Virus record (IMG/VR): IMGVR_UViG_3300037760_000179
Coordinates: 1-64,000 of that record
DNA from: a virus
DNA: 64,000 nt
Direction: 5' to 3' (one strand)
Positions 35,411-49,950 of this stretch are shown piece by piece (the stretch's first letter is position 1; each line of letters opens with the position of its first letter). The translations under genes were made by a program, and so were the position numbers. The notes under the pieces are model-generated. The model saw nothing but the letters and a program-made list of their open reading frames with translations. It was not told the origin of the DNA and searched no databases.

Positions 35411-38400
35411 CTAGTTCTCCTCCGTGTTGGCGCCGGTCAGGGCCGGCAGCTTGCTGAAGATCCGCTCGTCCTCGTCGGCCTCGGCAGCGGCCACGTCCTG
35501 CGGCTCACCCACCTTGCCCTTCGGCTCGACCGGAACGACCAGACCCGGCTCCAGGCTGGCCAGCACCTCGCGGGCGCCGTCCGGGTCGGCCTCCCACGCC
35601 TTGGCCCAGTGGTCCCGGCGGGCGGGGGCGATACGCCCGTCGCCGACCGCGGCCTCGATGATGCGGTCCCGGTCCTCGACCCGCTGCCGCTCGGCGGCCT
35701 GCGCGCCCAGTTCGGCCTTGGACCGCAGGTCCTCCAGGGTGGCCGCCTCGATGGTGACCACCCCCTCGGGCAGGCTGGCCGCGACATTGGCCGGCTCCGG
35801 CGGCTGCTCGGCCTTGTCCGCCAGGGCGAGCACGGCAGCATTCACCTCGTCCGGGTCCGCGTCTTCGGCCAGGCCGAGCCGCTCCAGCGCCTCATTGCTC
35901 AGAGGCATGTCATCCTCCTCGGTTGATGGGTTTCCCGGCTCGGCGGCCGGCGTCTTGGTGTGCGGGTCTGCTGCGGAAGCCTGGGTCGTCCGGTCGAAGT
36001 CGAGCGACTCGAACTTCGCCACCGATGCCGCCAGCCGCAGCACCTCGTCGATCGGCCGGTCTACGACCAGCCCGGTGACGGTCATGTCCGGGCGTGCCCC
36101 GGATGCGCGCACCGCGGCGGCACCGGACCACCGGTGGTGCCCGTCGACCACGTACCCGTCGTTGGAAGTAACCAGCAGCCCGCCGGGTAGCCATCCGTCC
36201 TTGGCCATGAACCCGTACAGCTTCCCGGTCTTCGCGCCGGAGATCTCCGACTGCGACGGCTTGAGCGTCGTCGGGTCGATCGTCTCCTGCCAGACTTCGA
36301 CACCCTGCGCACGCAACAGGTCCAGGAACGGCCGCATCTCCTCCTCGTTGGTGCCGAGCTGCGGCATCTTGGACCGGTCGAGGGCGTCGGTCTTGTCGGT
36401 TGCGAACAGGGTGCCGTACCCGCCGACATCCAGGCGGGCGAGGTTGGCGCGTTTGGCTTCGTCGCCGCCGCCGGTCAGCGTCTTCAGGAGCCCATCCAGC
36501 TCGGTGGCGTCAATGGATGCGCCCTCGCCGCGGGCCAGGGCGTCGTAGGCGCCGCGGATGGCCCTGTCGCCACCGCTGGCCTTGCCGCCTGGGCGCCGCT
36601 GGGCGGTCCGCCGGAGCAGCTTCCCGTCCGGGCCGTACCGGCGGCCGTGGGTCATCTGGTTGTGGCTGGCGTGCGCCTCCACATCCGGCCGGGACTCGGC
36701 GGCCGACGCGTACACCATCCGGGACGCGGCCACCCGCTCCGCGTCGTCACCCTGTTCCACGTATTCGACCCGCACCGGCACCGGCGGGCTGAACCGGATC
36801 GCGCCGTCGTCGTCGACGTCGAAGTCGACCCGCGCCACGGTGCCGTCGCCGTCGTTGGCGACGATCAGCCGCCTCGGCTGGGTATGGAACTCGCGAATCC
36901 ACGCCCGGTCCGGCGCCTGCGCGTAGTAGGCGGTGCGCACATCATCGACCGACACCGCCGCGGCGGCGTGCACCATCGTCGGGTTCGGGTTCGGCAAGGT
37001 CATCTCCCCCTCGGAGGCGTCCACAGTCCGCCCGTCGTCGTCTTCGTCGTCCGGGTCCGGGTCAACGGCCGGGATGCCGGTGGCGGGCCTGTCGAAGCTG
37101 ACGGTGGCAAACCAGCCGGCCAGGAGCTGCTTCTCTTCGGCCCGGCCGACCGCAGCGTCCTCGCCTGCAACGGCGGCAGCGGCGACCCACGCCGGGTCAC
37201 GCACCCAGCCGGCAAACACCGTCGGATTGATATAGCTCGATAGAGCCAGGGTGGGGGTGTTGCCAAGCGCGGCAGAGACCTTCTCGGCCACCTCGCGGCG
37301 GCGCTGCTGAAACTCCCGCTTCGTCTTCGGCACGCTCCGCCGCTTCGCCACCTCCCGCAACGCGACCATGTTGGCGTGCACCGTGCGGAGATCCTTGAGC
37401 AGGAACCCCGCTGGCACACCGGTGGAGTGCATGTAGTCGCGGGTGTGGGCCTCGGTGGTGTCGAGCAGCCGGTCGTCACCTGTCCGGGTGGACAACCGCC
37501 GCGACAACGCGGAGACGATCACCGGGTCGGCGGTCTCCAGCTGGATGTGGACACCCTTCTTGCCGATGAAGTCGAACCGGGCGGTGCCGCCCTCGACGGT
37601 GACGTGCCGGGCCAGCAGCGTGGTCGCCCCGTACGCCTGCTGCGACGCGCCGGTGTCGCGGGTCGACCCCGGCCGCATCCCGAGCCGTCGGATCAGCAGC
37701 AACGCCGCAGCGTCGTCGTTCGTCGCCGCGTCGCGTTCCACCGCATGGTCCAGCTTGTCCAGGTGCTCGTTCAGCTCCCGCACCCGCTGAAACTTGGCCG
37801 CCGCCTGCCCCTGCGTGTGCGCGGTCGAGTAGATCGCCTGCCGGCGGCCCTTGCCGTCGCGGCCGGTCACCAGCAGCGGCGCGTTGTCGAGGTCGTCGGC
37901 GAGGTGAACGTCGGTCCACGCCGGGGGGATGGACTTGCCGAACCGCTCCCGGAAGCTGCCGATCTCATCCGGTGTGGCCGGGTGCATCAGATCGACCCAC
38001 CGGCCGTCGCGGGGGTCACGCGGCTGGTCCGGGTCGAACGCGGCTACGTCACCCGCCGCGGACACCTTGCCCACGTTGCGCCGGTCACCGGGATAGACGC
38101 CTGTAAACTGCTTGTGGTAGACGCTGCACAGACCCTTCGGGTCCCGGACATACTTCCGGAGCTGCCGTACGCACCGCGTCCAGTCCCCGGGAGTGTTCCA
38201 CCGGATCTTCAGGCCGCCTTTGCCGGCGGGGCTCCAGTACCGCCGCAGCGGCGCGTCGGAGCGGGTGATCCGGCGGGACTGCTGCGCCTGCACCTCGACG
38301 GCCGGGGCTGGCATATCGTCGTCGGTCAGACCATCCACGTCCAGGTCCGAGCCCTCACCGGAAAGCGGGGTGTCGACGTTCTCGCCAGCGAACGCGACCC

Positions 38401-40759
38401 TGATCCGGTCCATCCTGACCGGCCCGGCCCGGTCGGCGAGGTGGGCCACGTTCATCAGGTCGTCGGAGTAGACCAGCGTCAGGTGCGGCCGGTAGGGGGC
38501 GTGCTGTTCCGGCAGGGCCAGCCCGTGCTGCCTGGCGGCCTCGGCAACAGCGGCCTCGGTCATGCCTTGCACGTCTTCGAGCCCGTCGCCGCCCAGCTCC
38601 AGCACGATCGCCGTGTCCTTGTCGGCCCGGTGCGGGTTGAACGCGGCCAGAGCCATGCCGTCGACCTCGCCCGGTGGGATCACCTCGGCCAGGTCCCGGA
38701 CGGCCTCGACGATCGCCTGCCGCGCGTCGGGCGGGTAGGCGTCGGCGTCACCGAGGAACAGCAGCGTCACGTGCAACTGGTCCTGGTCTTCGCCGCCGTC
38801 GGTGGCCAGCCGTTCGGCGTCGGCGGGTGACGGGAGCAGGGCAACCATCGCCCCCGACTTCACGTCGGACGCGGCAGCAACCTGCACCAGCGGGGGTGCC
38901 CCGCTGCCCGACCCGGCCGCCACCGTGACGCCCCGGGAGGTCGACCGGCGGACGGAGGAGAAGTAGAACAGGTCGGCAGCCTCGGCGACCTCCTCGACGT
39001 TGTCGAAGGCGCGGGGCAGAGGATGGTTCAGCGTGTTCGGCCACGACATTGACCAGCCGCCAACCTCGGCGCGCATCGTCAAGGCCGAGGGCGGTCCACC
39101 AGGCTCGCCGGGTGGGCCGTCGCGGGACACGACCACCGCACCGCCGGGCAGGTCCACCCGCAACGCGGTCAGGTCCGCCTCCGGGTCGGCAGTCTGGCCG
39201 AACTCGTCGAAACCCTCGTCGACGATGTTGATCGCGTAGCCGATGCGCTGCCAGTCGGCGAAGCTGTACCGCAGGTCCACCTGCCCGCCGTCGGGGGTGG
39301 GGGCACGCAGCCCCACCTGGTTGCCGTCGAGGAACACGTCCACCGGTCCGGAGGCGGTGTCGGCGCGGCCAGCGGCCGACAGCAGCACCACCGTGTCGGC
39401 GAGCTGCCGGGCCTCGCCCCGGGTCAGCCGGTGGGTGGTGTCGTCGGCGAGCAGCTCCAGCTGCCAGCCGTCGCCGTCGGGGGTGATCTGCGCGAACCCG
39501 GTCGGCGGGCTGGTGCCGGGGGTGTAGGTGGCGGCGGACACCGTGCCGTCGATTTCTTGCGGTCGCAGGTTCAGCAGCCGGCTCAGCTTCCCCGTCGCCT
39601 CCGCGTCCAGCGCCCCGGACGAGTTGGACCCGTAGGACAGGTGAACACCGTCTGGGCGGGCGTCCACGGTCAACGCCCCGGCGGCGGTTTCCAGGACGGT
39701 CGACAGGATGCTGCCAGCCGGTCCGTCGGTCCACCGGCCGTCGCGGGGGTCACGCGGCTGGTCCGGGTCGAACGCGGCTACCGCCGTACCGGCCAGGGCG
39801 GCGAACACCGGGCCGAGTACCTCGTCCACCACCCGCTGCAACGCGTCCCGCACCGGCTCCACGTCGTCCGGGTCCAGCTGGATCTCGGCCTGCTCCTCGT
39901 CACCTTCCCAGCCGATGGTGACCAGCCCGTTGCCGTACAACGCCAGCTCGACTTCGCTCCTCAGGCCCACCGAGTAGATCAGGGTGTTGGATGCGGCGTT
40001 GTCGGGGATGTCCACGTCGAGCAGGTCGTCCAGCCCGTCGACCAGCTCCTGCGTCTCGTCGGTGGTGAGGGTGGTTCCGACGGTTCCGGCGGCGCCGAAG
40101 GTCAGGTCCACGTCGCCGACGTCGTCGGCGCGCAGGTGCAGGTCTCCGGAGGACGTTTCCAAGGTGACGCGTGGCAGGCCGGGACCGCCGCGGCCGCGGT
40201 TGCCGTGGGTCTGCTGGTTGTGCCCGCCGCGCAGGTGCGCCACCACGGCGGTGCCGGCGTCAGCCTGGACCCCGTACAGGGCACCCACATCCTGCAACGA
40301 CTTGAGGGTGCCCACCCCGGGTGGGGTCACGCCGAGCAGCGCCACCGCGGTCAGCACGAACGGGTGGGTGTGGCCGATCTGGCAGCGGTGGTCGTAGGAG
40401 CCCTCCACGGACCGGTCCGGGTAGGCCGATGCGGCGATGTCACCCAACCAGCCGGGCATGCCCACGAAGTCGCCGACGAGGGTGTGGCCCTGGTTCGTCA
40501 GGGCCAGGTTGTCAACCCAGCCGACGGCGGGGACACCGGTCGGGTTGCCGGCCCACAGCGGCGTCTCACCGCGGGAGTGGCCCAGCTTCAGCACCGGCCG
40601 GCGGACGGCAGGGCACTTCAGCGCGGCGGCTGCGGCTACCAGGTCGTCACGGGAGGCGGTCCACTGCCCGGTGCTGATCTTCCACTGGCCGGTGTGGACC
40701 AGCTCGACCCGGTTCAGCCGGGCCAGCGGCGGGGCGGTGGGCACGGCGATCTCGACCAC
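35411..40759 (-). CDS. Prohead protease/scaffold polyprotein with 2H phosphoesterase, topoisomerase IB and ParB-like modules
   Basis: N-terminal Mu gpI-like protease (LKLGH, PAVGWV, YPDRSVE, LTAVALLG..PPGV); HVT/HLT motifs; TopIB motifs; DGHHRW; C-terminal scaffold AVGDGRIAPARRDHW. Confidence 0.85.
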   Translation of the reverse strand: MVEIAVPTAPPLARLNRVELVHTGQWKISTGQWTASRDDLVAAAAALKCPAVRRPVLKLGHSRGETPLWAGNPTGVPAVGWVDNLALTNQGHTLVGDFVGMPGWLGDIAASAYPDRSVEGSYDHRCQIGHTHPFVLTAVALLGVTPPGVGTLKSLQDVGALYGVQADAGTAVVAHLRGGHNQQTHGNRGRGGPGLPRVTLETSSGDLHLRADDVGDVDLTFGAAGTVGTTLTTDETQELVDGLDDLLDVDIPDNAASNTLIYSVGLRSEVELALYGNGLVTIGWEGDEEQAEIQLDPDDVEPVRDALQRVVDEVLGPVFAALAGTAVAAFDPDQPRDPRDGRWTDGPAGSILSTVLETAAGALTVDARPDGVHLSYGSNSSGALDAEATGKLSRLLNLRPQEIDGTVSAATYTPGTSPPTGFAQITPDGDGWQLELLADDTTHRLTRGEARQLADTVVLLSAAGRADTASGPVDVFLDGNQVGLRAPTPDGGQVDLRYSFADWQRIGYAINIVDEGFDEFGQTADPEADLTALRVDLPGGAVVVSRDGPPGEPGGPPSALTMRAEVGGWSMSWPNTLNHPLPRAFDNVEEVAEAADLFYFSSVRRSTSRGVTVAAGSGSGAPPLVQVAAASDVKSGAMVALLPSPADAERLATDGGEDQDQLHVTLLFLGDADAYPPDARQAIVEAVRDLAEVIPPGEVDGMALAAFNPHRADKDTAIVLELGGDGLEDVQGMTEAAVAEAARQHGLALPEQHAPYRPHLTLVYSDDLMNVAHLADRAGPVRMDRIRVAFAGENVDTPLSGEGSDLDVDGLTDDDMPAPAVEVQAQQSRRITRSDAPLRRYWSPAGKGGLKIRWNTPGDWTRCVRQLRKYVRDPKGLCSVYHKQFTGVYPGDRRNVGKVSAAGDVAAFDPDQPRDPRDGRWVDLMHPATPDEIGSFRERFGKSIPPAWTDVHLADDLDNAPLLVTGRDGKGRRQAIYSTAHTQGQAAAKFQRVRELNEHLDKLDHAVERDAATNDDAAALLLIRRLGMRPGSTRDTGASQQAYGATTLLARHVTVEGGTARFDFIGKKGVHIQLETADPVIVSALSRRLSTRTGDDRLLDTTEAHTRDYMHSTGVPAGFLLKDLRTVHANMVALREVAKRRSVPKTKREFQQRRREVAEKVSAALGNTPTLALSSYINPTVFAGWVRDPAWVAAAAVAGEDAAVGRAEEKQLLAGWFATVSFDRPATGIPAVDPDPDDEDDDGRTVDASEGEMTLPNPNPTMVHAAAAVSVDDVRTAYYAQAPDRAWIREFHTQPRRLIVANDGDGTVARVDFDVDDDGAIRFSPPVPVRVEYVEQGDDAERVAASRMVYASAAESRPDVEAHASHNQMTHGRRYGPDGKLLRRTAQRRPGGKASGGDRAIRGAYDALARGEGASIDATELDGLLKTLTGGGDEAKRANLARLDVGGYGTLFATDKTDALDRSKMPQLGTNEEEMRPFLDLLRAQGVEVWQETIDPTTLKPSQSEISGAKTGKLYGFMAKDGWLPGGLLVTSNDGYVVDGHHRWSGAAAVRASGARPDMTVTGLVVDRPIDEVLRLAASVAKFESLDFDRTTQASAADPHTKTPAAEPGNPSTEEDDMPLSNEALERLGLAEDADPDEVNAAVLALADKAEQPPEPANVAASLPEGVVTIEAATLEDLRSKAELGAQAAERQRVEDRDRIIEAAVGDGRIAPARRDHWAKAWEADPDGAREVLASLEPGLVVPVEPKGKVGEPQDVAAAEADEDERIFSKLPALTGANTEEN
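37997..38047. repeat. 51-bp exact direct repeat, copy 1
   Basis: Identical to 39731-39781; encodes VAAFDPDQPRDPRDGRW on the minus strand. Confidence 0.9.
39731..39781. repeat. 51-bp exact direct repeat, copy 2
   Basis: Identical to 37997-38047. Confidence 0.9.
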
Positions 40760-40831
40760 AAGGCACCTCCAGGGGGGAGAGCGTGCCCGTAGGCGAAACC
40801 TACTGTGGGACGAAACGCAGCGGGCCGACCG

Positions 40832-41008
40832 TCAGCGGGCCGACTCCAGCGGCTCCCGATCCTCCGGGTCGTCCACCACAACCTTCTTCCACCCGACCTC
40901 AGGACCGAACCAGGTCAGTCCCGGCTCCGGCGGCGGCCCCGGAGGGGGCGAGGAGAGGTCAACCTTCTTGGCGTTCGGGTCCCTGCGGAACTCTCGGTTG
41001 GTGGCCAT
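40832..41008 (-). CDS. Small hypothetical protein
   Basis: RBS GAGGAGG; MATNREFRRDPNAKKVDL. Confidence 0.5.
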   Translation of the reverse strand: MATNREFRRDPNAKKVDLSSPPPGPPPEPGLTWFGPEVGWKKVVVDDPEDREPLESAR

Positions 41009-41061
41009 CTGACCTCCTCTTTCATCTCCCATTGTACCCCTGGGAGCGGGTCGGCGCAGGC

Positions 41062-44000
41062 TCAGGTTCCCCTGCTGGCAAAGGCGTCGAGCACATCCGC
41101 GAGGCTGCTGGCGACGTCCGCCGCCTCCCGCGAGCCGTACGGGTTGCGCTGCTTGTCCCGCACCTCGTCAACGATCGCACGCAGTTTCGCCGACGCTGCG
41201 GCGAAGTCACCGGTTGCGTCGCCCTCGGCCAGGATCTGTTCGATCCGGGGCAGGTCAACCGAGTACCGGATCCGGTCGAAGTCTCTCTGGAACCGGCTGC
41301 GCACCCCGTCGAGCGGCTGCGGGACCCGCTGCCGGTAGTCATTCTCCAGCCGCCGGGCGGCGGACAGAGCGAACCGTCGCGCCTCGTAGCCGTTGTCCCT
41401 GGCCTCGGTCAGTCCGTACTCGCGTAGCCGTGCGGCGGTAGCCAGATCACGGTCCGGGTCGCTGCCGGCCCGCAGCATTTCGATGATCTCGTCTCGGTGC
41501 TGCGGGTCCAACCCAACCAGGGACATAGCGCCGAGCCCGTCGCCCCGGTACTGGCCCTGTAGCAGCGGCTCCCGCAGCCTTTCGGGCACACTGCGGTCGA
41601 CTTTCGCCTTGACCGCGAGCATGTTCCACGTACCGCTCCGGTCCAGACCGGGAGTCTGCGCACGCAGCATGCCGACCACCTCGCCGACACCAGCCCCATC
41701 GGCCCTGCGCCACTCGGCCAGGTCGATGCCGGTGTTCCACGGGATGCCCGCCCCCTCGACGGCCTCGGCGAACGCTCTGGCTTCCTTCTGGGTGCGGAAA
41801 CCGCTCAGAACTGGAGCGTTGCGCATGACACGCGGGACAACGATGTCGTAGCCGCTTCTACCCTTCATCACCAGCAGTTGGCCGCTCGGGGACAGCAAGC
41901 CCCACTTGGCCCCGGCGTCATCCGGAATCCGGTCCGCGAGCGCCTCGTCGGCCTCTAGCCACGCGGTCAACTCGCCGAGCCCCTGGAATCCCTCACCGGA
42001 GTCCAGCCGGGTCTTGATGTCGGCAAGTTCGGCGGCCTTCCTCGCCGCCGCCTTCTCCGCCGGATCCGTGGGCTCCGGCGTCTCGCCCCGCCGGGCCAGT
42101 TCCTGTTTGAGGTTCCGGTCGACCCGCATGAAGCGTTCCTGCGCCTGCTCCAGGGCGTCCTGGTCGCGGAACGGCCGACCCACCCGGGCGCGCAGTGCCT
42201 CAATGTCCTGGCGGGCCTCGCGGGTTCTGGCGACGTGGCGGGTGAGGGTCCTCTCCATGCGGCCGAGGGCGTTCTGAAGATCGCCGATGACGTCGGTCGA
42301 GTTGAGGTCGCCGCGGCGAACACTGACGGACCCGGGTACGCCGACCAGCTCGACGCTGAAGCCGGTTTCTGTCCGGCCGGCCCGCAGCGGGAACCCCCGA
42401 AACTCTCCGATCACGGTGGGCGCGTCGCGTGCTGTCCGGATCTGCTTGCGCAGCTGCTGCTGCGCCTCGGTCCGGTCCCGGTAGTCGGTGCCGCCGAGGG
42501 ATATCTTGAACCTCTTGCCATCGACACGCTTGGGAAGCGCTTCGTTGATCTGGGCGATGGCCTGTTCGGACCGGGCGACGTCGGCCTCACCGTCGGTGAT
42601 CCGCTTAGCGATGTTGCGCTGGTCAGCCTCGTGGTTACGCCGCGCCCGCTGCAACCGCGTCAGATCGGCGCTGGCGTCGGCGTGCTCGATCAGCCACCGG
42701 TTGCCGGTCCCGAGGGCGGTGACTTCCTGCGCGGTCAGCGCGAACTCGCCGACATCGTCCACCTCGCGCACATCCAGCCGGCCCCGCATGACCTGGTTGA
42801 TGAACGTGCTCTTGGTCGTGATCGCCTGCCAGATGTACGCGTCGAACGACTGCTCGGTCACGTACCGGATGACCTCTACTTCGGGGTTCTTGTTGCCCTG
42901 CCTGACGATGCGGCCGTCGCGCTGCTGCACGTCGACCGGCCGCCACGGCGCGTCCACATGGTGCAGCGCAACCGCCCGGTCCTGCACGTTGGTCCCGACG
43001 CCCATCTTGGCAGTGCTGCCGACCAGAACAGCCACCCGGCCGTCTCGGGCAGCGGCGAACAACTCGGCCTTCTCCTGGTCGGTGTTCGCCTCGTGGATGA
43101 ACCGGACCCTGTTGCGGGGGACGCCCCGCTCGACCAGCTTGTCCCGCAGCGCCTCGTAGGCGACGAAGTCGGCCAGGCCGCTACCAGCCTCGTCCTGGTC
43201 GGACCCGCTGGTCTTCTTCCTCTTGCCGCCGGGGGTGCCGATGTCGCTGAACACCAGTTGCAGCGCACCCGGGACGCCGACGGGGTTGCCGGCTCGGTCG
43301 GTGTACACCGCATCCTTGTTCTTCTCGTAGATGGCCGCGATCTTGCCGGCGGCGACGTCCAGCTTCGTCGGCTCGGCGGTGTCGCGTCCCACCATCTGAA
43401 GGTCCAGCGCGGCGGCCCGCCCCTCGCCGGTGATCTTCAGCATGTTGTCGCCGCCCTTTTCGGGCGGGTACGGAATCGTCTTGGCGCGGGCGACCAGCTG
43501 CTCCATGAAGTCCAGCAGTTCCTGGCTGGGCGGCACCACCACGGTCTCCGGCGCCCGGGTACGGTTGCCGTCGGCGTCGACCCGCTCCACCAGGTCGGGA
43601 GTCTTGACGATGTCCTTCAGGTCATCGGCGGTCTTCACGTCGGAGGCGACCAGCCACGGCCGCAGGAACTCCGGCAGGTTCACGAACTTCGCGAACCGGG
43701 AGTGCTGCCGCAGCCCGCCGGTCGGCGCGACCTCCAGCCTGGTGGTCATCTCGCCGAAGTTCGCCGCCCACTCGTCGAATGTCTCGACGCCCATGTCCTC
43801 AAGCAGGTCCGGACGCAGGTAACGCATCATCGTGTACGCCTCGGACACCGAGTTGGCGATCGGTGTCGCGGTGGCCAGCGTCGCCACCCGGTCGTTACGC
43901 GAACGCAGGTGGTGCAGCTTCATGTGCAGATCGGTGGCGATCTGACTGCCGGGAATGCCCAGGCCCTGAATGCCCGACGGGGTACGGAGGTTCTTGTAGG

Positions 44001-47000
44001 TGTGGGCCTCGTCCATGAACAGGTAGTCGATGCCGGTGCTCTCGAACGTCAGCCCCGGGTCCCGGTCGGTGCTGCCGACCTGGTCCTTGATGCGCTGCTC
44101 GGCCTTCTCGACCTGCCCCTCAAGCTCCTTGACGGTCGGGTCGTTGTCCAGCGCCTCCCCTACCAGCTTCCGAAGCGCCTCGTCGCTGGCGCCTTCGTTG
44201 TCGGCGCGGACCCTCTCCACCACCTGGGCGCGGCGCCTGGCGGCCGACCGCCGCAGCGGCTCAACCTCCCCCGCCAGGTAGTCCCGCTCGGTCTCGCTGG
44301 ACACCGGAATCCGCTTGAACGCGCCCTGGGTGAGGATCACCGCGTCCCAGTCGCCGGTGGCTGCCTTGGCGACGATCTCGCGCCGCTTCTCGCCGCCCTT
44401 GTCGCCCTTCAGGTCGTCGGACCCGATCGCGAGCACACGCGCCTGCGGGTAGCGCTCCAGGAACTCGCTGGTCATCTGCTCCAGCATGTGGTTGGGCACG
44501 ACGATGGCGGGCTTGCGCACCAGACCCAACCGGCGCATCTCCATCGCACCGATGACCATGGTGGTGGTCTTGCCGGACCCGACCTCGTGCCACAGGCCAA
44601 CCGAGGGCTCGGCGATGATCCGCCGGACAGCCGCGCTGCGGTGCGGGAAGGCGTAGAAGCCGTCCCGGTTCAACCCTGGCAACTCCAGGTCCGAACCGTC
44701 GTACGAACGCAGCACCAACGAGTTGAACCGGCGGTTGTACGTGTCCTGAAGGTCCCTCTGCCGGGTGGGGTCTTCCCACAGCCACTCGGCGAAGCGGTCT
44801 GCCATCTCCTGGGCCTTCGCCTGCGCCTGCTCGGTCTTGTCCCGGTTGAGCTTGCCGTCCTCGGTGACCCGGATCGGCTTCTGCCCCAGGATGTCCTCGG
44901 CGATGTCGACGCCGGACATCTCCCGGATGCCCCACTCGGTGGTCGCGGCGGTGCTCCGCTTGCGGTCCGACCTGACCTTCCAGGCGTTCGCGTGCGGACG
45001 CTCAACGGTCAGCGTCGGGTCCCGCAGGATCTCCCGCAGGAACTGCTGCACGTACGCCGGTTCGATCCACCCGGCGCCCATCTTGGCGTTGATGTCAACC
45101 GGGGTCAGGTCCGGCGGCAGGACCCGCTCCAACGCCTCCACGTTCGGCGCGAACGCGTCCGGGTCCTCGGCCGCAGCCAGGCGGGCCACGTCGAGCTTCT
45201 GCCGCACGTTGCCTGACAGGTACTCGGCCGCCGGTGCGAGCCGGCCGCTACCTGGCTCGTCGAAGACCAACGTACCGAGACGGTCCCGGGCGGTCGGCTC
45301 GTCGACGTCGAGCAGGTCAGCGATGTGGGCCAGGTCGACCTCGCCGAGCTGGTCCACGGTGATCGCCAGCGCGTCTGCGGCGCTTTCCGCGCTGGTCCTG
45401 GGGGTGCGGGGGGCGATCGTGCGACGGTGGAAGATGTCGGTCTTGGTGGCGTTGCCCGTGAGCGGGTCGTAGTTCTCCAGGGCGCGCACCGCGGCCGAGA
45501 ACGGGTCGCTGCGGAATCCGCCCTGCGGTGGGCGGGTGCGGGTGACCCGCTGCTCCTCAACGTCGTCCTCGTCCTCGCCGCCCTTCGGGGCGCGCCGCTT
45601 CTCCGTGAAGCGGCTGACCGGCCCCCACTTGGCGACGTAGCCGTCGTAGATCTCGTTGAGGTCTTCGCGGAGCCGCTTCATCTGCTCGGTGTCGTCGCCG
45701 CTGGAAGCCTCGGCGTTGACCAGGTCGATGCTGGTGTCGCGCAGCCGCAACAGCTCCCGCAGCTCCTCCCGCTGTGTCGCGGGAACCTCGTGCGGCTGCT
45801 CCACCCCGCGGGTGACACGGCTGAAGGTGCCGTCCGGGAGGGCACGCAGGAACCCCTCGGGCACACGGTCCGGCCCGGTTTCGGCGAACGCGGGACGCGG
45901 GCGCTGCCCGGGGGTCTGGGTCAGCCCCATCGCCTGAGCCCGTGAGACGACCTTGTCCAGCGCCTCCCTCAGCGCCGGCCCAGCGTCCGCGTCGCCGCGA
46001 ACACCGAAGGCATCCTTTGGTCCGCTGCCCATGACCATCGTCCCGAGCACCATGTCGGGGTTGTCGAGGAAGTGCCCGTTGACCGACACTTCCCGGTCGT
46101 CGTCGCCGATGGTGATCTTCCGGGCAGCCTGGAACGGCAGCCCGGCATACGGCGTGTCGGGCTCGCGGCGGCGGAACACCAGCAGGTCGGTCACCACCGC
46201 CGTGCCGGCCGCCTTCTCGTGCGCCCGCGACGGCAGCCGCACCGCCCCGACGAGGTCAGCCAGTTCGGCCATTTCCTCCCGCGCGGCCGGGCTCATCGAG
46301 TCCATCGTGTACCGGGAGGTGATGAACGCCCCGATCCCGCCCGGGCGGGTCATCCGCAGCGACTTGAGGATGAAGTGGTTGTGCATGTTGTGACGGCGGC
46401 CCGGGTTGTACTCCGGGTCAACCAGCTTGGTGTCGGAGAACGGCACGTTGCCGATGGCGGCATCGAAGGCACCGTCGCGCGTCTTGGTGTCAGTGAACGA
46501 CTCTGCCCGCACGTCCGCGTTCGGGTACAGGGCGGCCGCGATCGAGGCGGTGATCGGGTCCAGTTCCACCCCGGTCACGTGGGTGTCGGGTGCGACGTCC
46601 TCCGGCACCATCCCCATGAACGTGCCCGACCCGCTGCCCGGCTCCAGCACCTCGCCGCCGTGGAAACCGAGGCCTCGCACGGCGTCCCAAATCGCGGCGA
46701 CGTAGTCCGCGTCGGTGTAGTGCCCGGTGCGGGTCGTTCGCCGCGCCGCCGCGAACTCCTCCGGCGTGAGCAGGTCCTTCAGCTCGGCCTGCGCGTCGGC
46801 GAACCTGCCACGCGGGGGTGGCTCCTTGAACACGTTGGGCAGCGAACCCCACCCGGACCAGCGGGCCAGTTTCGCCTGGTCCTCAGCCGACGCCGGCCGG
46901 CCGGATTCTTGCAGGTCCCGCAGGGTCCGCAGCGCCACAAGGTTGGCGTCCAGCCGCTTGGTCGCCGTGTTCGGCGCGAGGTCGGCCTGACTGCGCGGGC

Positions 47001-49950
47001 GGAAAACCTGGGTGGCGTCTACTCGCCAGTCTCGCCCTCCGGCGCCTCGTCGTCCTCCGCCCGGGGCAGCATCTCCGCCAGCACTTCCCGCTCCGCGGTC
47101 GGCCGGGCCGCCATCATCCGTTCCCACCGCTCCTGGAACGGCCGGTCCGCCGGGATCGTCTCCTCCAGCGCCTCCGCCCGGTCGAGTACCCGGGTCTCGA
47201 TCTGTTCCCCCAGGTTCTGGAAGAACGTCTCCCGGCTGCTCATCTGGGCGTACTCCGCCGGCCGGTACTTCTGCCAGTGCGCCATCGCCATCCGGCCGTA
47301 CTGATTCATCCGAACCCGGCCCCCCTCTGTCGACCTCTGGCAGGACGGATCGTAGCAGCGCCTGGCCGATCTCCTCCCGCGTCGCCGATTTCGACACCTC
47401 GACTCCACGGCGGACGGCGGTGCGGCGCAGCTGGTCCCCGCTGAACCCTTCCAGCGGGTCACCGGCCTGGTTACCGGCCTTCCAGGTCTCGATGCGGGCG
47501 GCCAACCGCTCGCGGAACTGGCCACCCTTGCCGCCTAGGGTGCCTTTAGGCCAGCGTGGATGGTGGTCAGCATTCCATGCCGCCTCGACGTCGCCATCGC
47601 CGTCGAGTTCGCCAGCCACGCGGGCCAGCGCCCACAGCAAGTCCTCGATGTCATCGTCGGCTGCGCCGTCCGCACTGTCAGCCCGGCGGCGGCGGCTGAT
47701 CCGCGCCCGCAACTGGCCTCGGCAGCGGCTGCGCCCCTCGCACTGCCAGTACCGGCCCACCGGGTAGTCAGCCAGCGCCCCGGCCAGCGTCTCGTACACG
47801 GTGCCGTCGATCTCGCGGCACGGACCGCACGTGTTGGTGTCGTTGCGCTCGTCCGCCACCCACACCACCGGCACGCCCAGCGCCTGTAGCCCGCGGAACA
47901 CCGCCGCACGGCCCAGATGCACCGCAGCGTGCACAGCAGCTGCAAGCTCCCCGGCGACAAACCCCCGCGCCGCGCCGCGCTGCTGGGTGGTGGCGGTGGA
48001 AGTCAGATCCTCGGCCGCCCGGGTGACCGCGGCGGCGGCGTCGTCGGGGTCGGCGTCGGGGCCGGCTGCCAACACGGCCCGGGCAGCGGCGGACGTGTAG
48101 CCGCCGACGATCAGGTGGGCGGTGGCGTCGGCCAGCTGGTCCAGCCGTGCCGTGTCCACGTCGGGTAGGCCCGGGTCGGCCCCCTGTGCGGCGACCGCGG
48201 ACCGGGCGGTGCGGGCCGACGTGGCGGCCACGTCACGTAGCTGCGCCCGCAGCCCACCGGCCACCGCCCCGACCAGGCTGGGGCCGACCGTCAGTGTCGC
48301 CAGGGTGGCGACGGTTCCGGCGGAGGCGGCTTCGGCTGCGGCCTGGGCCAGCGGCGGCACGATGGGCGCGGCCAGCAGCGGCCAGGCGGCCAGCAACGCC
48401 AGCAGCGCGGCGGACGAGTCTTCCTCGACCTGCCGCATCTCGTCCTCGGCCTGCTGCTGCTCGTCCTGTTCGGTCTGGGCGGCGACGAACAGGTCCGGCT
48501 GCTCGTACCGCACCGGGCCGGGCGGTGCGGCAGCCTGCACCGGGCCGGATGGCGCCGGCTTGGGCTCAGGCCCGGGCGGGGTCGGCCCGGGTGCGGGACT
48601 GCCTCCGGCCGGCGGGTCCTGGCCGGGCACCTGCACCGGCCGACTGCGGTCCGGCGCCGGCAGCCGGTACTCTTTGCGGACCCACTCCTCCAGCCCCGGA
48701 TCGGCTGACAGGGCACCGGAGGCCAGCAGCAGCTGCAACGACTCGGCGGTCACCTCACGGCGTGAGGCGATCCCCGACGCCCACACCTTCGGCACCGGCT
48801 CGTCTTCGTCGTCCCAGTTCCACGCGACCAGCCGGGCGGCGACCTGCCGGGTCACCACGTCGGCGATCTCCTCAGCGATGGACTCCAGGGCCAGCGTCCA
48901 AGCGTCGATGAACGCGACGCCCAGCGCCCTGTTGCCGGTGGCGGTCTGCCCGAGGTCGAGGTGGCCCATCAGCGCCATGGTGGACATCTGCTGGTCCAGC
49001 CACTTCACGAAGCCCATCGTGTCCGGGGTGCCACCGGACAGGCCCACCAGCTCCAGCCACGCACCGGGTGGCATCGCCGCGCCGGCGGTGTCCCCGGCCC
49101 GGGCGGCAGAGGCCATCTGCTGCGCCTGGGTCATCTGCGCCGGGGTCGGTGACATCGACTCCGGCCAGCGGACCACCGGCACACCCATGCCGAACCGGCG
49201 GGAGGAGGTGGCGAGGACCCGCATCATCTCCCGCTTGAACAGCCACGGCGCGAACGCCGGCCTAAGCAGCGAGGTGCCGAACCAGGACGCGCCCTCACGT
49301 TCGTGGCAGTACCACGCCAGCCGGTCCGCGCCGATCTCCGGCTTGTCGAACGGCCCGGCTGCCATCTCCTGGGAGATGCCGGCGAACGTGCCCCGCCGGG
49401 GCTCCACGTGGATCTGGGTGATGGTGTGCTGCGGCCGGTCCCACAGGCCGACCAGGTGCGCCCGCCCGTCGCCGCCGATCTTGGCCTCAAGCTCGAACCC
49501 GGCATGCCCGAACGGGAGCATCGTCAACGCCGAGCGGAGGTGGTCGTGCCACGACAGGCCGTGGGCCGTTCCCACACCCGGGTTGTCGCGGCCGATCACC
49601 GGCAGGTCCAGGTCGTGGGCCACCAGGTCGACCACCTCGCGGCGGCAGCCGGTGGCGTCGATCTGCCAGGTGGCACGCAGCAGCATGTGGCAGTAGCCGG
49701 CCAGCACCGCCGCCAGCTTCGCATCCCGCCGCATCGCGTTGTAGGTGGTCACGGACTGGGGCCACGCCACGTCCGGTACGGTCTCCAGGGCGTCGACCAG
49801 CAGCCCCTCGTACGCCGAGTCCTCGACGTACCCGCGCAGCGACGTGGGCGGCTTGAACACCTTGGCGCCGTTGGCGTGGGCGGCCATGATGTCCGCCGGG
49901 TGCGCCATCACCGTGGCGCCGTTGACCGGTCCGTCTGGCAGCGGGTCCAC
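41062..49950 (-). CDS. Portal (DUF935/Mu gp29-like)-MuF-N6 adenine methyltransferase-SNF2 helicase (DarB-like) polyprotein
   Basis: Portal (YNAMRRDAKL, GTSLLRPAF.PW..K, RFGMGVP); MuF (DTNTCGPC..IDG, CEG..RCRG); MTase (LEPGSGSG, GVELDP, GNVPF); helicase (HEVGSGKT, DEAH, ATATP, QRDGRIVRQGN). Confidence 0.85.
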   Translation of the reverse strand: MDPLPDGPVNGATVMAHPADIMAAHANGAKVFKPPTSLRGYVEDSAYEGLLVDALETVPDVAWPQSVTTYNAMRRDAKLAAVLAGYCHMLLRATWQIDATGCRREVVDLVAHDLDLPVIGRDNPGVGTAHGLSWHDHLRSALTMLPFGHAGFELEAKIGGDGRAHLVGLWDRPQHTITQIHVEPRRGTFAGISQEMAAGPFDKPEIGADRLAWYCHEREGASWFGTSLLRPAFAPWLFKREMMRVLATSSRRFGMGVPVVRWPESMSPTPAQMTQAQQMASAARAGDTAGAAMPPGAWLELVGLSGGTPDTMGFVKWLDQQMSTMALMGHLDLGQTATGNRALGVAFIDAWTLALESIAEEIADVVTRQVAARLVAWNWDDEDEPVPKVWASGIASRREVTAESLQLLLASGALSADPGLEEWVRKEYRLPAPDRSRPVQVPGQDPPAGGSPAPGPTPPGPEPKPAPSGPVQAAAPPGPVRYEQPDLFVAAQTEQDEQQQAEDEMRQVEEDSSAALLALLAAWPLLAAPIVPPLAQAAAEAASAGTVATLATLTVGPSLVGAVAGGLRAQLRDVAATSARTARSAVAAQGADPGLPDVDTARLDQLADATAHLIVGGYTSAAARAVLAAGPDADPDDAAAAVTRAAEDLTSTATTQQRGAARGFVAGELAAAVHAAVHLGRAAVFRGLQALGVPVVWVADERNDTNTCGPCREIDGTVYETLAGALADYPVGRYWQCEGRSRCRGQLRARISRRRRADSADGAADDDIEDLLWALARVAGELDGDGDVEAAWNADHHPRWPKGTLGGKGGQFRERLAARIETWKAGNQAGDPLEGFSGDQLRRTAVRRGVEVSKSATREEIGQALLRSVLPEVDRGGPGSDESVRPDGDGALAEVPAGGVRPDEQPGDVLPEPGGTDRDPGTRPGGGAGGDDPGGPAVPGAVGTDDGGPADRGAGSAGGDAAPGGGRRGAGGRDWRVDATQVFRPRSQADLAPNTATKRLDANLVALRTLRDLQESGRPASAEDQAKLARWSGWGSLPNVFKEPPPRGRFADAQAELKDLLTPEEFAAARRTTRTGHYTDADYVAAIWDAVRGLGFHGGEVLEPGSGSGTFMGMVPEDVAPDTHVTGVELDPITASIAAALYPNADVRAESFTDTKTRDGAFDAAIGNVPFSDTKLVDPEYNPGRRHNMHNHFILKSLRMTRPGGIGAFITSRYTMDSMSPAAREEMAELADLVGAVRLPSRAHEKAAGTAVVTDLLVFRRREPDTPYAGLPFQAARKITIGDDDREVSVNGHFLDNPDMVLGTMVMGSGPKDAFGVRGDADAGPALREALDKVVSRAQAMGLTQTPGQRPRPAFAETGPDRVPEGFLRALPDGTFSRVTRGVEQPHEVPATQREELRELLRLRDTSIDLVNAEASSGDDTEQMKRLREDLNEIYDGYVAKWGPVSRFTEKRRAPKGGEDEDDVEEQRVTRTRPPQGGFRSDPFSAAVRALENYDPLTGNATKTDIFHRRTIAPRTPRTSAESAADALAITVDQLGEVDLAHIADLLDVDEPTARDRLGTLVFDEPGSGRLAPAAEYLSGNVRQKLDVARLAAAEDPDAFAPNVEALERVLPPDLTPVDINAKMGAGWIEPAYVQQFLREILRDPTLTVERPHANAWKVRSDRKRSTAATTEWGIREMSGVDIAEDILGQKPIRVTEDGKLNRDKTEQAQAKAQEMADRFAEWLWEDPTRQRDLQDTYNRRFNSLVLRSYDGSDLELPGLNRDGFYAFPHRSAAVRRIIAEPSVGLWHEVGSGKTTTMVIGAMEMRRLGLVRKPAIVVPNHMLEQMTSEFLERYPQARVLAIGSDDLKGDKGGEKRREIVAKAATGDWDAVILTQGAFKRIPVSSETERDYLAGEVEPLRRSAARRRAQVVERVRADNEGASDEALRKLVGEALDNDPTVKELEGQVEKAEQRIKDQVGSTDRDPGLTFESTGIDYLFMDEAHTYKNLRTPSGIQGLGIPGSQIATDLHMKLHHLRSRNDRVATLATATPIANSVSEAYTMMRYLRPDLLEDMGVETFDEWAANFGEMTTRLEVAPTGGLRQHSRFAKFVNLPEFLRPWLVASDVKTADDLKDIVKTPDLVERVDADGNRTRAPETVVVPPSQELLDFMEQLVARAKTIPYPPEKGGDNMLKITGEGRAAALDLQMVGRDTAEPTKLDVAAGKIAAIYEKNKDAVYTDRAGNPVGVPGALQLVFSDIGTPGGKRKKTSGSDQDEAGSGLADFVAYEALRDKLVERGVPRNRVRFIHEANTDQEKAELFAAARDGRVAVLVGSTAKMGVGTNVQDRAVALHHVDAPWRPVDVQQRDGRIVRQGNKNPEVEVIRYVTEQSFDAYIWQAITTKSTFINQVMRGRLDVREVDDVGEFALTAQEVTALGTGNRWLIEHADASADLTRLQRARRNHEADQRNIAKRITDGEADVARSEQAIAQINEALPKRVDGKRFKISLGGTDYRDRTEAQQQLRKQIRTARDAPTVIGEFRGFPLRAGRTETGFSVELVGVPGSVSVRRGDLNSTDVIGDLQNALGRMERTLTRHVARTREARQDIEALRARVGRPFRDQDALEQAQERFMRVDRNLKQELARRGETPEPTDPAEKAAARKAAELADIKTRLDSGEGFQGLGELTAWLEADEALADRIPDDAGAKWGLLSPSGQLLVMKGRSGYDIVVPRVMRNAPVLSGFRTQKEARAFAEAVEGAGIPWNTGIDLAEWRRADGAGVGEVVGMLRAQTPGLDRSGTWNMLAVKAKVDRSVPERLREPLLQGQYRGDGLGAMSLVGLDPQHRDEIIEMLRAGSDPDRDLATAARLREYGLTEARDNGYEARRFALSAARRLENDYRQRVPQPLDGVRSRFQRDFDRIRYSVDLPRIEQILAEGDATGDFAAASAKLRAIVDEVRDKQRNPYGSREAADVASSLADVLDAFASRGT
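47019..47309 (-). CDS. TnpV-like small protein nested in an alternative frame of the portal polyprotein
   Basis: MNQYGRMAMAHWQKYRPAEYAQM...FFQNLGEQI...AEREVLAEML; purine-rich RBS; host frame here is low-complexity G/P/D. Confidence 0.7.
   Translation of the reverse strand: MNQYGRMAMAHWQKYRPAEYAQMSSRETFFQNLGEQIETRVLDRAEALEETIPADRPFQERWERMMAARPTAEREVLAEMLPRAEDDEAPEGETGE

What the first reader, a model, noticed from the sequence alone, without database searches (positions are those of the whole stretch)
35411..49950. Candidate virion payload system: portal and prohead protease both act as carriers for enzyme cargo
Seen: two nearly adjacent giant ORFs begin with core head-assembly proteins (portal+MuF; Mu gpI-like protease) and continue in frame into at least five non-structural enzymes: adenine MTase, SNF2 helicase, 2H phosphoesterase, topoisomerase IB and a ParB/Srx-like domain. 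Short recurring peptides mark many module junctions. Known: MuF proteins and phage 'polyvalent' proteins carry such domains, and P1 DarB is packaged and co-injected. Inference: fusion to portal/protease forces the cargo into the prohead, the protease releases it during maturation, and it enters the cell with the DNA to counter restriction or nucleotide-signalling defences and to condition the incoming genome.
Basis: partly seen in the sequence, partly recalled or inferred. Interest (0 to 1): 0.92.

Follow-up and report, generated by a model that had tools for sequence, protein, structure and literature searches.

The report
Phage head proteins carrying enzyme cargo
An uncultured high-GC phage has built DNA- and RNA-acting enzymes into its portal protein and into its capsid protease-scaffold protein, probably so that they are loaded into the capsid; this is a known strategy in an unusual form, and loading has not been shown.

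Summary
Both giant ORFs are real: 41062-49950(-), 2962 aa, and 35411-40759(-), 1782 aa. They lie in a terminase / portal / protease / cement protein / capsid operon of a 93.7-kb viral record.

ORF1 is a Mu-type portal, a weak MuF-like motif and a DarB-like methylase-SNF2 helicase. Its junction reads out of frame across a nested, plasmid-type tnpV-like gene (47019-47309). The fusion is still open in four diverged relatives.

ORF2 is not a protease with a tail. It has a three-part backbone: an assemblin-fold protease, a middle domain and a C-terminal scaffold. The two linkers hold a 2H phosphoesterase, a topoisomerase IB with its full catalytic pentad, and a ParB/Srx-like module.

The scaffold part has its own conserved internal ribosome site and start, as in lambda C/Nu3, Mu I/Z and herpesvirus UL26/UL26.5. 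That gives a precedented loading route.

About a quarter of the 150 nearest protease clusters carry inserts at the same three sites, with variable content. A junction peptide (VxAHLxGxHNQxxHG) occurs only in expanded members.

Packaging, cleavage and injection are inferred, not shown. Portal/MuF cargo is published (Iyer 2017). This scan noted similar 2H-topoisomerase cargo on other DNA. I rate it a new variant of a known kind.

The parts
41062..49950 (-). ORF1 (P0001), 2962 aa: portal, MuF-like motif, linker, DarB-like methylase/helicase, unknown C-terminal region
   Evidence: relatives P0037-39 have the same architecture
48631..49848 (-). Mu-type portal domain (residues ~35-440)
   Evidence: PF06074 E 1e-43; 34% identity to the Rhodococcus phage Mbo4 portal; solved portal structures E 4e-8
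47710..47871 (-). MuF-like Cys motif (residues 694-747). Cargo-free relatives end their portal-MuF protein about 5 aa after this point
   Evidence: 50-60% identity to Arthrobacter phage MuF-like proteins over 52 aa; no Pfam hit here; PF04233 sub-threshold in L007, L009, L011 and P0039; relatives 693-710 aa
47506..47589 (-). Junction peptide VEAA-WN.DHHPRWPKG..GGKGGQFR (residues 788-815), start of the extension beyond MuF
   Evidence: conserved in all four portal-DarB relatives
47019..47309 (-). Nested tnpV-like gene X (96 aa) in the +1 frame inside ORF1. ORF1 residues ~881-977 are its off-frame reading
   Evidence: frame plot; translation, ribosome site and ATG; 54 actinobacterial plasmids carry homologs, directly upstream of DarB-like helicases in the two regions inspected; Pfam TnpV E 0.006
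42031..47013 (-). DarB-like module: N6-adenine methylase plus SNF2/DEAH helicase (residues ~980-2640)
   Evidence: phrog_10089 E 0, 1310 bits; Pfam methylase/SNF2/Helicase_C; 32-36% identity to DarB-like genes of many phages; 43% to a Kocuria plasmid helicase
41062..42030 (-). C-terminal ~320 aa of ORF1, function unknown
   Evidence: no Pfam hit; 36-62% identity among the relatives
35411..40759 (-). ORF2 (P0002), 1782 aa: protease, cargo, middle domain, cargo, scaffold
   Evidence: frame plot clean
40226..40759 (-). Prohead protease domain P (residues 1-178); invariant H61, S117, E119, H132
   Evidence: phrog_3894 E 5e-97; 57% identity to the Mbo4 protease; alignments; model pLDDT 82; best folds VZV protease Z 7.7, T4 gp21 Z 6.8, HCMV protease Z 5.7, next <=4.3
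40184..40246 (-). Junction peptide 1, VVAHLRGGHNQQTHGNRGRGG (residues 172-192), directly after P
38900..40183 (-). Unknown modules (residues 193-620), including the first FDPDQPRDPRDGRW peptide (39725-39772)
   Evidence: no family hit; no internal repeat; partly shared with P0007 and P0014
38360..38887 (-). 2H phosphoesterase (residues 625-800), both HxT motifs present
   Evidence: PF13563 E 1.5e-8, 35.2 bits; phrog_2659 and phrog_18402; the sequence itself
38066..38266 (-). Small conserved module phrog_6439 (residues 832-898), function unknown
   Evidence: E 6e-25; also present in Microbacterium and Gordonia phage protease/MuF fusions
37190..38044 (-). Second FDPDQPRDPRDGRW peptide followed by type IB topoisomerase (residues 906-1190)
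   Evidence: PF01028 E 2e-15; D. radiodurans TopIB 2f4q E 3e-19 with R, K, R, N, Y aligned
36680..36997 (-). Backbone middle domain M (residues 1255-1360)
   Evidence: 41% identity to Mbo4 protease residues 184-300; present in cargo-free relatives
36620..36682 (-). Junction peptide 2, VEAHASHNQMTHGRRYGPDGK (residues 1360-1380), directly after M
35990..36577 (-). ParB/Srx-like module (residues ~1395-1590), DGHHRW motif
   Evidence: phrog_2859; invariant motif; model pLDDT 89; ParB-N/Noc/sulfiredoxin top rows, E >= 0.045; stand-alone, MuF-fused and zeta-fused homologs
35411..35908 (-). Scaffold domain C, also a nested in-frame gene (165 aa): ATG at residue 1618 with GAGGAGG 5 nt upstream
   Evidence: PF10123 positions 158-291, E 1e-7; internal ribosome site and start, conserved at the homologous position in 12 of 14 relatives
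35046..35408 (-). Cement/decoration protein (120 aa). It is not a scaffold, so domain C is the only recognisable scaffold
   Evidence: PF09956 27.3 bits against cut-off 24; PHROG labels it 'head scaffolding'
33965..34906 (-). Major capsid protein (313 aa), conserved from residue 1
   Evidence: phrog_1650 E 6e-70; alignment A5
50381..52930 (-). Large terminase (849 aa), interrupted by a LAGLIDADG homing-endonuclease/intein-like insert

Best explanation
This is the head-assembly operon of an uncultured actinobacterial siphophage. Two of its core proteins have become carriers of nucleic-acid enzymes, so they are virion-associated polyvalent proteins.

ORF2:
- Shown: it is a herpesvirus-UL26-like or lambda-C/Nu3-like polyprotein. 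It has an assemblin-fold serine protease (P), a middle domain (M) and a C-terminal scaffold (C). C is also made alone from a conserved internal ribosome site and start.
- Inferred: full-length ORF2 co-assembles with the abundant nested scaffold into the procapsid core. That drags in whatever sits in its P|M and M|C linkers: unknown modules, a 2H phosphoesterase, topoisomerase IB and a ParB-like module.
- Inferred: on activation the protease cuts at V-x-A|(S/A/H) sites, which are enriched at module borders and resemble assemblin R and M sites. The freed folded domains are too large to leave the shell. They stay with the DNA and probably enter the next host with it.

ORF1:
- Shown: it places a DarB-like methylase/helicase behind portal-MuF, on the C-terminal side that faces the capsid interior. 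The join came from capture of a plasmid-type tnpV-darB cassette, and the reading frame runs across tnpV.
- Inferred: cutting at VEA|A (residue 790) would free a ~235-kDa DarB-like protein.

Likely roles, all inferred:
- DarB-like module: anti-restriction.
- 2H module: removal of 2',3'-cyclic or 2'-5' nucleotide signals or RNA ends.
- Topoisomerase IB and ParB-like module: handling of the incoming genome.
For: - Synteny with Mbo4 and 14 viral loci. There the portal is 413-555 aa (693-710 aa with the MuF motif) and the protease is about 400-520 aa by first start, with no cargo.
- The backbone P|M|C maps to ORF2 residues 1-178, 1255-1358 and 1626-1770.
- 34 long homologs carry different Pfam cargo. 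Inserts occur only N-terminal to P, at P|M or at M|C, and C is always within 50 aa of the C-terminus.
- About 35 of the 150 nearest 50%-identity clusters are >= 800 aa.
- The P-domain tree needs at least 25 gains or losses of expansion, against ~53 for shuffled labels.
- Protease fold and invariant His/Ser.
- Nested scaffold start is conserved in 12 of 14 relatives. The neighbouring 120-aa gene is a cement protein, not a scaffold.
- Junction motif: 19 observed against 0.08 expected, and only in expanded proteins. V.A[AH] occurs 12 times in ORF2 against 3.0 +/- 1.7. V.A[SAHT] follows P in 114 of 170 homologs against a 27% background.
- Precedent: UL26/UL26.5, R site YLQA-T, M site VQA-S, and the protease staying in the nucleocapsid (PMC4498786). 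Fusion to the scaffold ensures co-incorporation (PMC11565193).
- ORF1: the open frame is kept in four relatives, all indels are multiples of three, and no start codon lies between the tnpV stop and the conserved DarB N-terminus. Only 11.5% of synonymous recodings of tnpV leave the frame open.
- Enzymes look active: topoisomerase pentad, HxT x2, GSGKT/DEAH, NVPF.
Against: - There is no proteomic, read-level or expression evidence.
- Fold matches for the protease are below Z 8. Those for ParB have non-significant E-values.
- The V-x-A cleavage rule is an analogy. The C-terminal (M-site-like) enrichment is weak: 61 of 125 against roughly a third expected.
- The junction peptides could be recombination scars or folding elements rather than signals.
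- In ORF1 the linker has off-frame composition. An unrelated Micromonospora plasmid also shows an annotated ORF running over its tnpV, so long open frames there can be incidental. V-x-A is not enriched in ORF1 (5 against 4.2).
- Twelve portal subunits each carrying 2500 extra residues might hinder packaging unless they are cut.
- In one relative the polyprotein seems split into two ORFs (P0005 plus P0182), so continuity is not obligatory.
Confidence: 0.55

Rival explanations
1. The enzymes are packaged but act on the phage's own DNA in or at the capsid and are not injected effectors. For example, topoisomerase IB could relieve torsional strain during packaging or ejection, the ParB-like module could organise DNA, and the methylase could protect the genome before release.
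For: All the cargo acts on nucleic acids. The cargo is tethered to the two proteins nearest the packaged DNA. By general knowledge, poxviruses carry topoisomerase IB in the core.
Against: Relatives carry zeta toxin and peptidoglycan-binding modules at the same sites, which fits host-directed effectors better. The 2H domain has no obvious role inside a capsid. P1 DarB is known to be injected (PMC5512222).
Confidence: 0.15
2. The portal-DarB continuity is an incidental read-through made by capture of a plasmid tnpV-darB cassette. Functionally the portal-MuF part and DarB are separate: DarB is made from an internal start or is inert as a tail, and only ORF2 is a true carrier.
For: - Off-frame codon composition over residues 861-980.
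- The nested tnpV-like gene has its own ribosome site.
- In the two plasmid regions inspected, tnpV lies directly upstream of a DarB-like helicase. One plasmid annotation also runs over tnpV out of frame.
- In-frame GTG codons exist at residues 942 and 1005.
- Only 4 clusters of this fusion were found.
Against: No stop codon in four relatives diverged to 52-70% identity in the linker. Indels keep the phase. The chance of an open frame is 0.115 per lineage, before the one-in-three chance of matching phase. The conserved DarB N-terminal segment 984-1004 has no start of its own. GTG942 has its ribosome site only 2 nt away and GTG1005 has none.
Confidence: 0.2
3. The long ORFs are polyproteins made for co-expression only. 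They are cut in the cytoplasm and the enzymes work late in the producing cell without entering capsids.
For: Polyprotein economy is common in viruses. One relative seems to have the polyprotein split in two.
Against: The scaffold domain is always kept at the extreme C-terminus and cargo is always upstream of it. By general knowledge, prohead proteases of this fold are active only after assembly. The same modules occur fused to MuF, a head protein.
Confidence: 0.08
4. An assembly or frameshift artefact hides stops between the modules.
For: Read data could not be examined. The contig is metagenomic.
Against: Independent assemblies give the same architectures. ORF2 shows uniform coding composition. 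Module order is collinear with the cargo-free backbones.
Confidence: 0.02

Closest known systems
Polyvalent proteins of phages and conjugative elements (Iyer et al. 2017, PMC5512222), including portal/MuF fusions to 2H, PBECR and InPase domains
   Same: Several unrelated effector domains sit in one polypeptide next to head genes. The repertoire is the same: adenine methylase plus SWI2/SNF2, 2H, DdrB-type ParB, MuF and portal. Packaging and injection are likewise predicted.
   Different: The paper's text does not mention topoisomerase IB as cargo or the prohead protease-scaffold as carrier. Here the cargo is inserted in internal linkers rather than appended.
Phage P1 DarB and the Dar anti-restriction system
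   Same: A giant methylase-helicase. The PHROG 'DarB-like antirestriction' match has E 0.
   Different: P1 DarB is a free protein loaded through DarA/Hdf. Here it is covalently continuous with portal-MuF, and I did not search for DarA or Hdf.
Herpesvirus UL26/UL26.5, lambda C/Nu3 and Mu I/Z protease-scaffold genes
   Same: An assemblin-fold protease at the N-terminus, a scaffold at the C-terminus, a nested in-frame scaffold gene, and V-x-A|S-like motifs at the domain end and near the C-terminus. PF10123 matches the scaffold half.
   Different: The known examples have only a short linker. Here about 1300 residues of enzymes fill the two linkers.
T4 internal proteins and Alt with the capsid-targeting sequence; SPN3US ejection proteins
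   Same: Enzymes are loaded into the scaffold core, trimmed by the prohead protease and injected (papers listed).
   Different: Those are separate proteins with a short N-terminal tag cut at LxE-type sites. Here loading would be by covalent fusion, and no such tag is present.
Actinophage 'capsid maturation protease and MuF-like fusion protein' genes and MuF-VIP2 fusions (PMC7302621)
   Same: Fused head genes are well known in actinophages. TurkishDelight gp15 (1147 aa) and MelBins gp19 contain the same 2H module.
   Different: They are annotated only as protease or MuF, and their enzyme content is not discussed. They have a different backbone order.
MuF polymorphic toxins of temperate phages (Jamet et al. 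2017, PMC5576092)
   Same: A conserved head-protein carrier with variable C-terminal effector modules.
   Different: That carrier is MuF and the cargo is toxins.

Membership tests
Polyvalent proteins (Iyer 2017) | Two or more unrelated effector domains in one polypeptide of a phage or conjugative element | tested here: met
Polyvalent proteins (Iyer 2017) | Encoded among packaging/late genes of a portal-terminase phage | tested here: met
Polyvalent proteins (Iyer 2017) | Delivered into the recipient cell with the DNA | not testable with these tools
   needs virion and infected-cell proteomics
Mu-type portal (PF06074) | Profile match above the curated cut-off | tested here: met
   150 bits against 23.9
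MuF / SPP1 gp7 (PF04233) | Profile match above the curated cut-off | tested here: inconclusive
   No hit in the window at E <= 1. Sub-threshold hits of 15-19 bits at the homologous motif in L007, L009, L011 and P0039. A 52-aa match to annotated MuF-like proteins.
P1 DarB-like | N6-adenine methylase plus SF2 helicase in one giant protein | tested here: met
   phrog_10089, 1310 bits; motifs
P1 DarB-like | Loading through DarA/Hdf and protection against type I restriction | not tested
   no search for darA or hdf was made; function needs experiments
Assemblin / prohead serine protease fold (herpesvirus protease, T4 gp21, HK97 gp4) | Fold match and conserved His/Ser catalytic pair | tested here: met
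   Z 7.7, 6.8 and 5.7 for the three protease entries, next <= 4.3. H61 and S117 are invariant in 50 sequences. Z is below 8, so support is moderate.
Protease-scaffold with nested scaffold gene (UL26/UL26.5, C/Nu3, I/Z) | In-frame internal start producing the C-terminal scaffold alone | tested here: met
   Ribosome site plus ATG at residue 1618. Conserved in 12 of 14 relatives. Expression not shown.
Mu gpI (PF10123) | Full-length profile match | tested here: inconclusive
   Only profile positions 110-291 of 330 (the scaffold half) match, at 31.6 bits against 25.2. The N-terminal part is not matched.
Type IB topoisomerase | Catalytic pentad R-K-R-(H/N)-Y | tested here: met
   All five residues align to D. 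radiodurans TopIB.
2H phosphoesterase | Two HxT/S motifs and a profile match | tested here: met
   PF13563, 35.2 bits against 27; HVT and HLT in the sequence
ParB/Srx superfamily | Fold and conserved Arg-containing active-site motif | tested here: inconclusive
   No Pfam hit. DGHHRW is invariant. Top Foldseek rows are all ParB-N, Noc or Srx but with E >= 0.045.
T4-type capsid-targeting sequence cargo | Short N-terminal tag removed at L/I-x-E | tested here: not met
   The cargo is internal to a polyprotein and no such tag is seen. It may work like this system but is not a member.

The most novel reading that the evidence does not exclude
The P|M|C protease-scaffold of this actinophage family is a general capsid-loading chassis. 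Any module dropped into one of three permissive sites and headed by the VxA|H-LxGxHNQxxHG or FDPxQPRDxxGRW peptide would be encapsidated through the nested scaffold, cut free by the protease and ejected. The leader peptides would serve as combined cleavage and ejection signals. Cargo would have been swapped dozens of times, and the pairing of 2H with topoisomerase IB, which recurs in unrelated phages, would be a functional unit that prepares the incoming genome.
Probability: 0.3. Interest if true: 0.8.

Novelty: new variant of a known kind. Interest (0 to 1): 0.62.

Why it matters
If the cargo is really encapsidated, this family shows a second, covalent way of loading proteins into tailed-phage capsids, beside the T4-type tag and P1 Dar routes. 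It would use the ancient protease-scaffold gene shared with herpesviruses.

It would also add topoisomerase IB to the list of phage virion enzymes, in parallel with poxviruses.

It gives exact, testable fragment borders.

It offers a natural template for packaging foreign proteins in phage heads.

The nested tnpV case is a clear example of a new fusion made by reading through a captured gene in another frame.

Tried and rejected
The scaffold-capsid alignments A4 and A5 had been prepared but were not run.

Searches that gave nothing or little:
- The genome-contig scan gave only 3 cargo-free loci.
- The genome search cannot draw relatives for a virus record.
- Pfam on ORF1 residues 440-1000, 755-880 and 2600-2962, and on ORF2 residues 179-640, gave nothing usable. 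A helix-extended-helix (SAP-like) look of ORF1 residues 833-870 is therefore only my impression.
- No internal repeats in ORF2 residues 186-625.
- No solved-structure sequence match for the 2H module.
- Foldseek against the PDB gave no significant row for either model. The protease assignment rests on the wide VIA-align search.

Readings rejected:
- The 120-aa gene as scaffold. It is a cement protein.
- Cargo 'behind' the protease.
- Junction motifs elsewhere in the genome. There are none in six frames.
- V-x-A enrichment in ORF1. It is absent.
Full report
**Setting.** The window is the first 64 kb of a 93.7-kb linear IMG/VR virus record that CheckV rates 99% complete. GC content is about 71%. 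From about 11 kb onward nearly all genes with coding-type composition lie on the minus strand.

The finding sits in a canonical head operon. In order it holds:
- large terminase, 50381-52930;
- ORF1, 41062-49950;
- ORF2, 35411-40759;
- a 120-aa gene, 35046-35408;
- the major capsid protein, 33965-34906;
- then tail genes, including a tape measure.

Rhodococcus phage Mbo4 has the same order with ordinary sizes: portal 511 aa, protease 493 aa, capsid 309 aa.

**Observation.** Both ORFs exist exactly as stated.

ORF1 contains:
- a Mu-type portal (PF06074, E 1e-43);
- a DarB-like methylase/SNF2 block (phrog_10089, 1310 bits; Pfam methylase, SNF2 and Helicase_C; motifs GSGSGTF, NVPF, GSGKT, DEAH).

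ORF2 contains:
- a head-maturation protease (phrog_3894, E 5e-97);
- a 2H phosphoesterase (PF13563 above its cut-off, both HxT motifs);
- a small conserved module (phrog_6439);
- a type IB topoisomerase (PF01028; E 3e-19 to D. radiodurans TopIB, with all five catalytic residues aligned);
- a module with an invariant DGHHRW motif;
- the C-terminal half of the Mu gpI profile.

The ParB/Srx call has no Pfam support. A pLDDT 89 model gives only ParB-N, Noc and sulfiredoxin chains in its top ~30 Foldseek rows, though at non-significant E-values.

MuF is the weakest item:
- no Pfam hit in the window;
- a 52-aa Cys motif that is 50-60% identical to Arthrobacter phage MuF-like proteins;
- sub-threshold PF04233 hits at the homologous place in four relatives.

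**ORF2 is a backbone with inserts.** Comparison with the Mbo4 protease splits ORF2 into three backbone pieces:
- P, residues 1-178, 57% identity;
- M, residues 1255-1358, 41% identity;
- C, residues 1626-1770, 38% identity.

The cargo therefore lies in two linkers. The P|M linker holds about 1075 residues and the M|C linker about 265.

Fourteen viral and three genomic loci carry the cargo-free P-M-C form. It is about 400-520 aa by first start and sits next to a portal of 413-555 aa, or 693-710 aa with the MuF motif.

The P domain model (pLDDT 82) was compared with 48,161 chains. It matches best the varicella-zoster protease (Z 7.7), T4 gp21 (Z 6.8) and the cytomegalovirus protease (Z 5.7). The next row is at 4.3. 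These Z values are moderate. H61, S117, E119 and H132 are invariant in 50 sequences.

**Nested scaffold.**
- The neighbouring 120-aa gene, often labelled scaffold, is a cement protein (PF09956). Domain C is therefore the only recognisable scaffold, and it matches the gpZ-like half of PF10123.
- Inside ORF2, an ATG at residue 1618 (nt 35908) has GAGGAGG 5 nt upstream.
- An in-frame start with a strong ribosome site lies at the homologous position (within 2 codons) in 10 of 14 relatives, and 20 codons upstream in two more.
- This is the lambda C/Nu3, Mu I/Z and herpesvirus UL26/UL26.5 arrangement.
- In those systems, fusion to the scaffold takes a few protease molecules into the procapsid, and the cut protease stays in the capsid (PMC4498786 and PMC11565193).
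- It supplies a precedented route by which everything upstream of C in ORF2 would be encapsidated. Expression of the nested gene is not shown.

**Family survey.**
- The protease domain finds 1809 library clusters, 846 of them below 1e-10. About 35 of the best 150 are >= 800 aa, against a baseline of 440-540.
- A word-index search found 34 proteins of 980-2439 aa with differing Pfam content: 2H, topoisomerase IB, peptidoglycan-binding domains, zeta toxin and an intein.
- Block mapping shows extra sequence only at three places: N-terminal to P (90-1206 aa), at P|M (100-1800 aa) and at M|C (120-390 aa). C always ends within 50 residues of the C-terminus.
- A rough FastTree of the P domain needs at least 25 changes between expanded and basic forms, against about 53 for shuffled labels. 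That alignment is short and the sample is enriched for long forms.
- The ParB-like module also occurs alone, fused to MuF (PF04233) and together with zeta toxin.
- Cultured phages carry the 2H module inside genes annotated only as protease or protease-MuF fusion. Examples are TurkishDelight gp15 (1147 aa) and MelBins gp19.

**Junction peptides.**
- ORF2 has two copies of FDPDQPRDPRDGRW (residues 330 and 908). It also has two copies of an HNQxTHG peptide (residues 180 and 1366), which lie directly after P and after M.
- In the family the extended motif VxAHLxGxH(N/D)QxxHGxRxGPDGK occurs 19 times against 0.08 in shuffles. It is absent from all 88 proteins under 600 aa and present in 9 of the 37 proteins of 1000 aa or more.
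- These motifs occur nowhere else in the 93.7-kb record in any frame.
- V.A[AH] occurs 12 times in ORF2 against 3.0 +/- 1.7. Most copies lie at module borders (172, 318, 627, 899, 1192, 1263, 1360, 1756). It is not enriched in ORF1.
- A V.A[SAHT] motif, mostly VAAS or VAAA, follows the P domain in 114 of 170 homologs against a 27% background. The enrichment near the C-terminus is weak, 61 of 125.
- The resemblance to assemblin release and maturation sites (YLQA-T and VQA-S in PMC4498786) suggests cutting after the Ala. This is an analogy only.

**ORF1 junction.**
- A frame plot shows that ORF1 residues ~861-980 have GC3 of 0.40-0.57 and GC1 above 0.9.
- The +1 frame there holds a 96-aa gene (47019-47309) with a ribosome site and an ATG.
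- That gene has TnpV-like homologs in 54 actinobacterial plasmids (Pfam TnpV E 0.006).
- In the two plasmid regions I inspected (Kocuria, Micromonospora), it lies directly upstream of a DarB-like helicase.
- The portal-MuF gene has therefore captured a plasmid-type tnpV-darB cassette, and the 'linker' is tnpV read in another frame.

Is the fusion meaningful? Evidence for:
- Four relatives, 66-76% identical in the portal and 52-70% in the linker, all keep the frame open, with indels in multiples of three.
- Only 11.5% of synonymous recodings of tnpV avoid a frame-0 stop.
- The conserved DarB N-terminal segment (residues 984-1004) has no start codon after the tnpV stop.

Evidence against:
- A Micromonospora plasmid annotation also runs over its tnpV out of frame.
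- GTG codons at residues 942 and 1005 could start DarB separately.

I put the incidental-fusion rival at 0.2. A conserved VEAA-WN.DHHPRWPKG..GGKGGQFR peptide (residue 788) marks the start of the extension beyond where cargo-free relatives end.

**Mechanism.**
- Shown: the domain content, the backbone-with-inserts architecture, the nested start signal, the variability across the family, the motif enrichment and the intact catalytic residues.
- Inferred: encapsidation through the scaffold domain and the portal C-terminus, cutting at V-x-A, retention of folded fragments, ejection, and roles in anti-restriction, removal of nucleotide signals or RNA ends, and handling of the incoming DNA.

**Comparison and novelty.**
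- Portal/MuF-fused effectors, DarB-like methylase-helicases, 2H domains and DdrB-type ParB domains as packaged polyvalent proteins are described by Iyer et al. 2017. Its text mentions neither topoisomerase IB cargo nor the prohead protease as carrier.
- Fused head genes in actinophages are well known (PMC7302621).
- Loading of cargo that the prohead protease then trims is known for T4 and SPN3US.
- This scan has noted 2H-topoisomerase head-module proteins and enzyme-protease fusions on other DNA. I did not check those notes.
- New here: enzymes inserted into the linkers of a UL26-like protease-scaffold with a nested scaffold gene; junction peptides specific to expanded members; and a portal-DarB fusion made by reading through a captured gene.

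**Verdict.** It is a new variant of a known kind. Interest is 0.62.

Noticed in passing
window 50381-52930 (-): The large terminase is 849 aa against about 500 in Mbo4. It carries LAGLIDADG/homing-endonuclease matches at residues 265-326 between its ATPase and nuclease parts. This is probably an intein.
   Followed up: partly
window 47019-47309 (-): A complete 96-aa tnpV-like gene with its own ribosome site is nested in the +1 frame inside the portal polyprotein. It is a case of an older gene being read through in another frame.
   Followed up: yes
window 3590-5959 (+): An FtsK/SpoIIIE (TraB-like) gene (phrog_31069, E 1e-92) lies on the opposite strand at the left end, in a slightly higher-GC block. 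It may be a conjugation-type module or flanking DNA next to the phage.
   Followed up: no
window 29993-33384 (-): Directly after the capsid gene lie non-structural-looking genes: a methyltransferase (phrog_8156) and a weak dehydrogenase-like N-terminus. This could be a virion-modification operon.
   Followed up: no
window 24744-28151 (-): A 1135-aa ORF between the head and tail genes has no PHROG match at all.
   Followed up: no
window 13901-17122 (-): A 1073-aa protein downstream of the tape measure has a phosphodiesterase-annotated PHROG match (phrog_24476) in its C-terminal part.
   Followed up: no
proteins P0005 and P0182 (relative phage, contig length 32693): In one relative the protease polyprotein seems to be split into two ORFs: P-2H-topoisomerase (1238 aa) and ParB-like plus scaffold (669 aa). 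That they share a contig is inferred only from the equal contig length.
   Followed up: partly
L006:11928-12860: The capsid gene homolog of this IMG/VR relative has an in-frame stop inside an otherwise 55% identical match.
   Followed up: no
L020 (Micromonospora plasmid NZ_CP108881) 5746-13254: The annotated 2502-aa 'helicase' CDS runs out of frame over the plasmid's own tnpV-like ORF (7001-7288). Either its start is over-extended or the same overlap exists there.
   Followed up: partly
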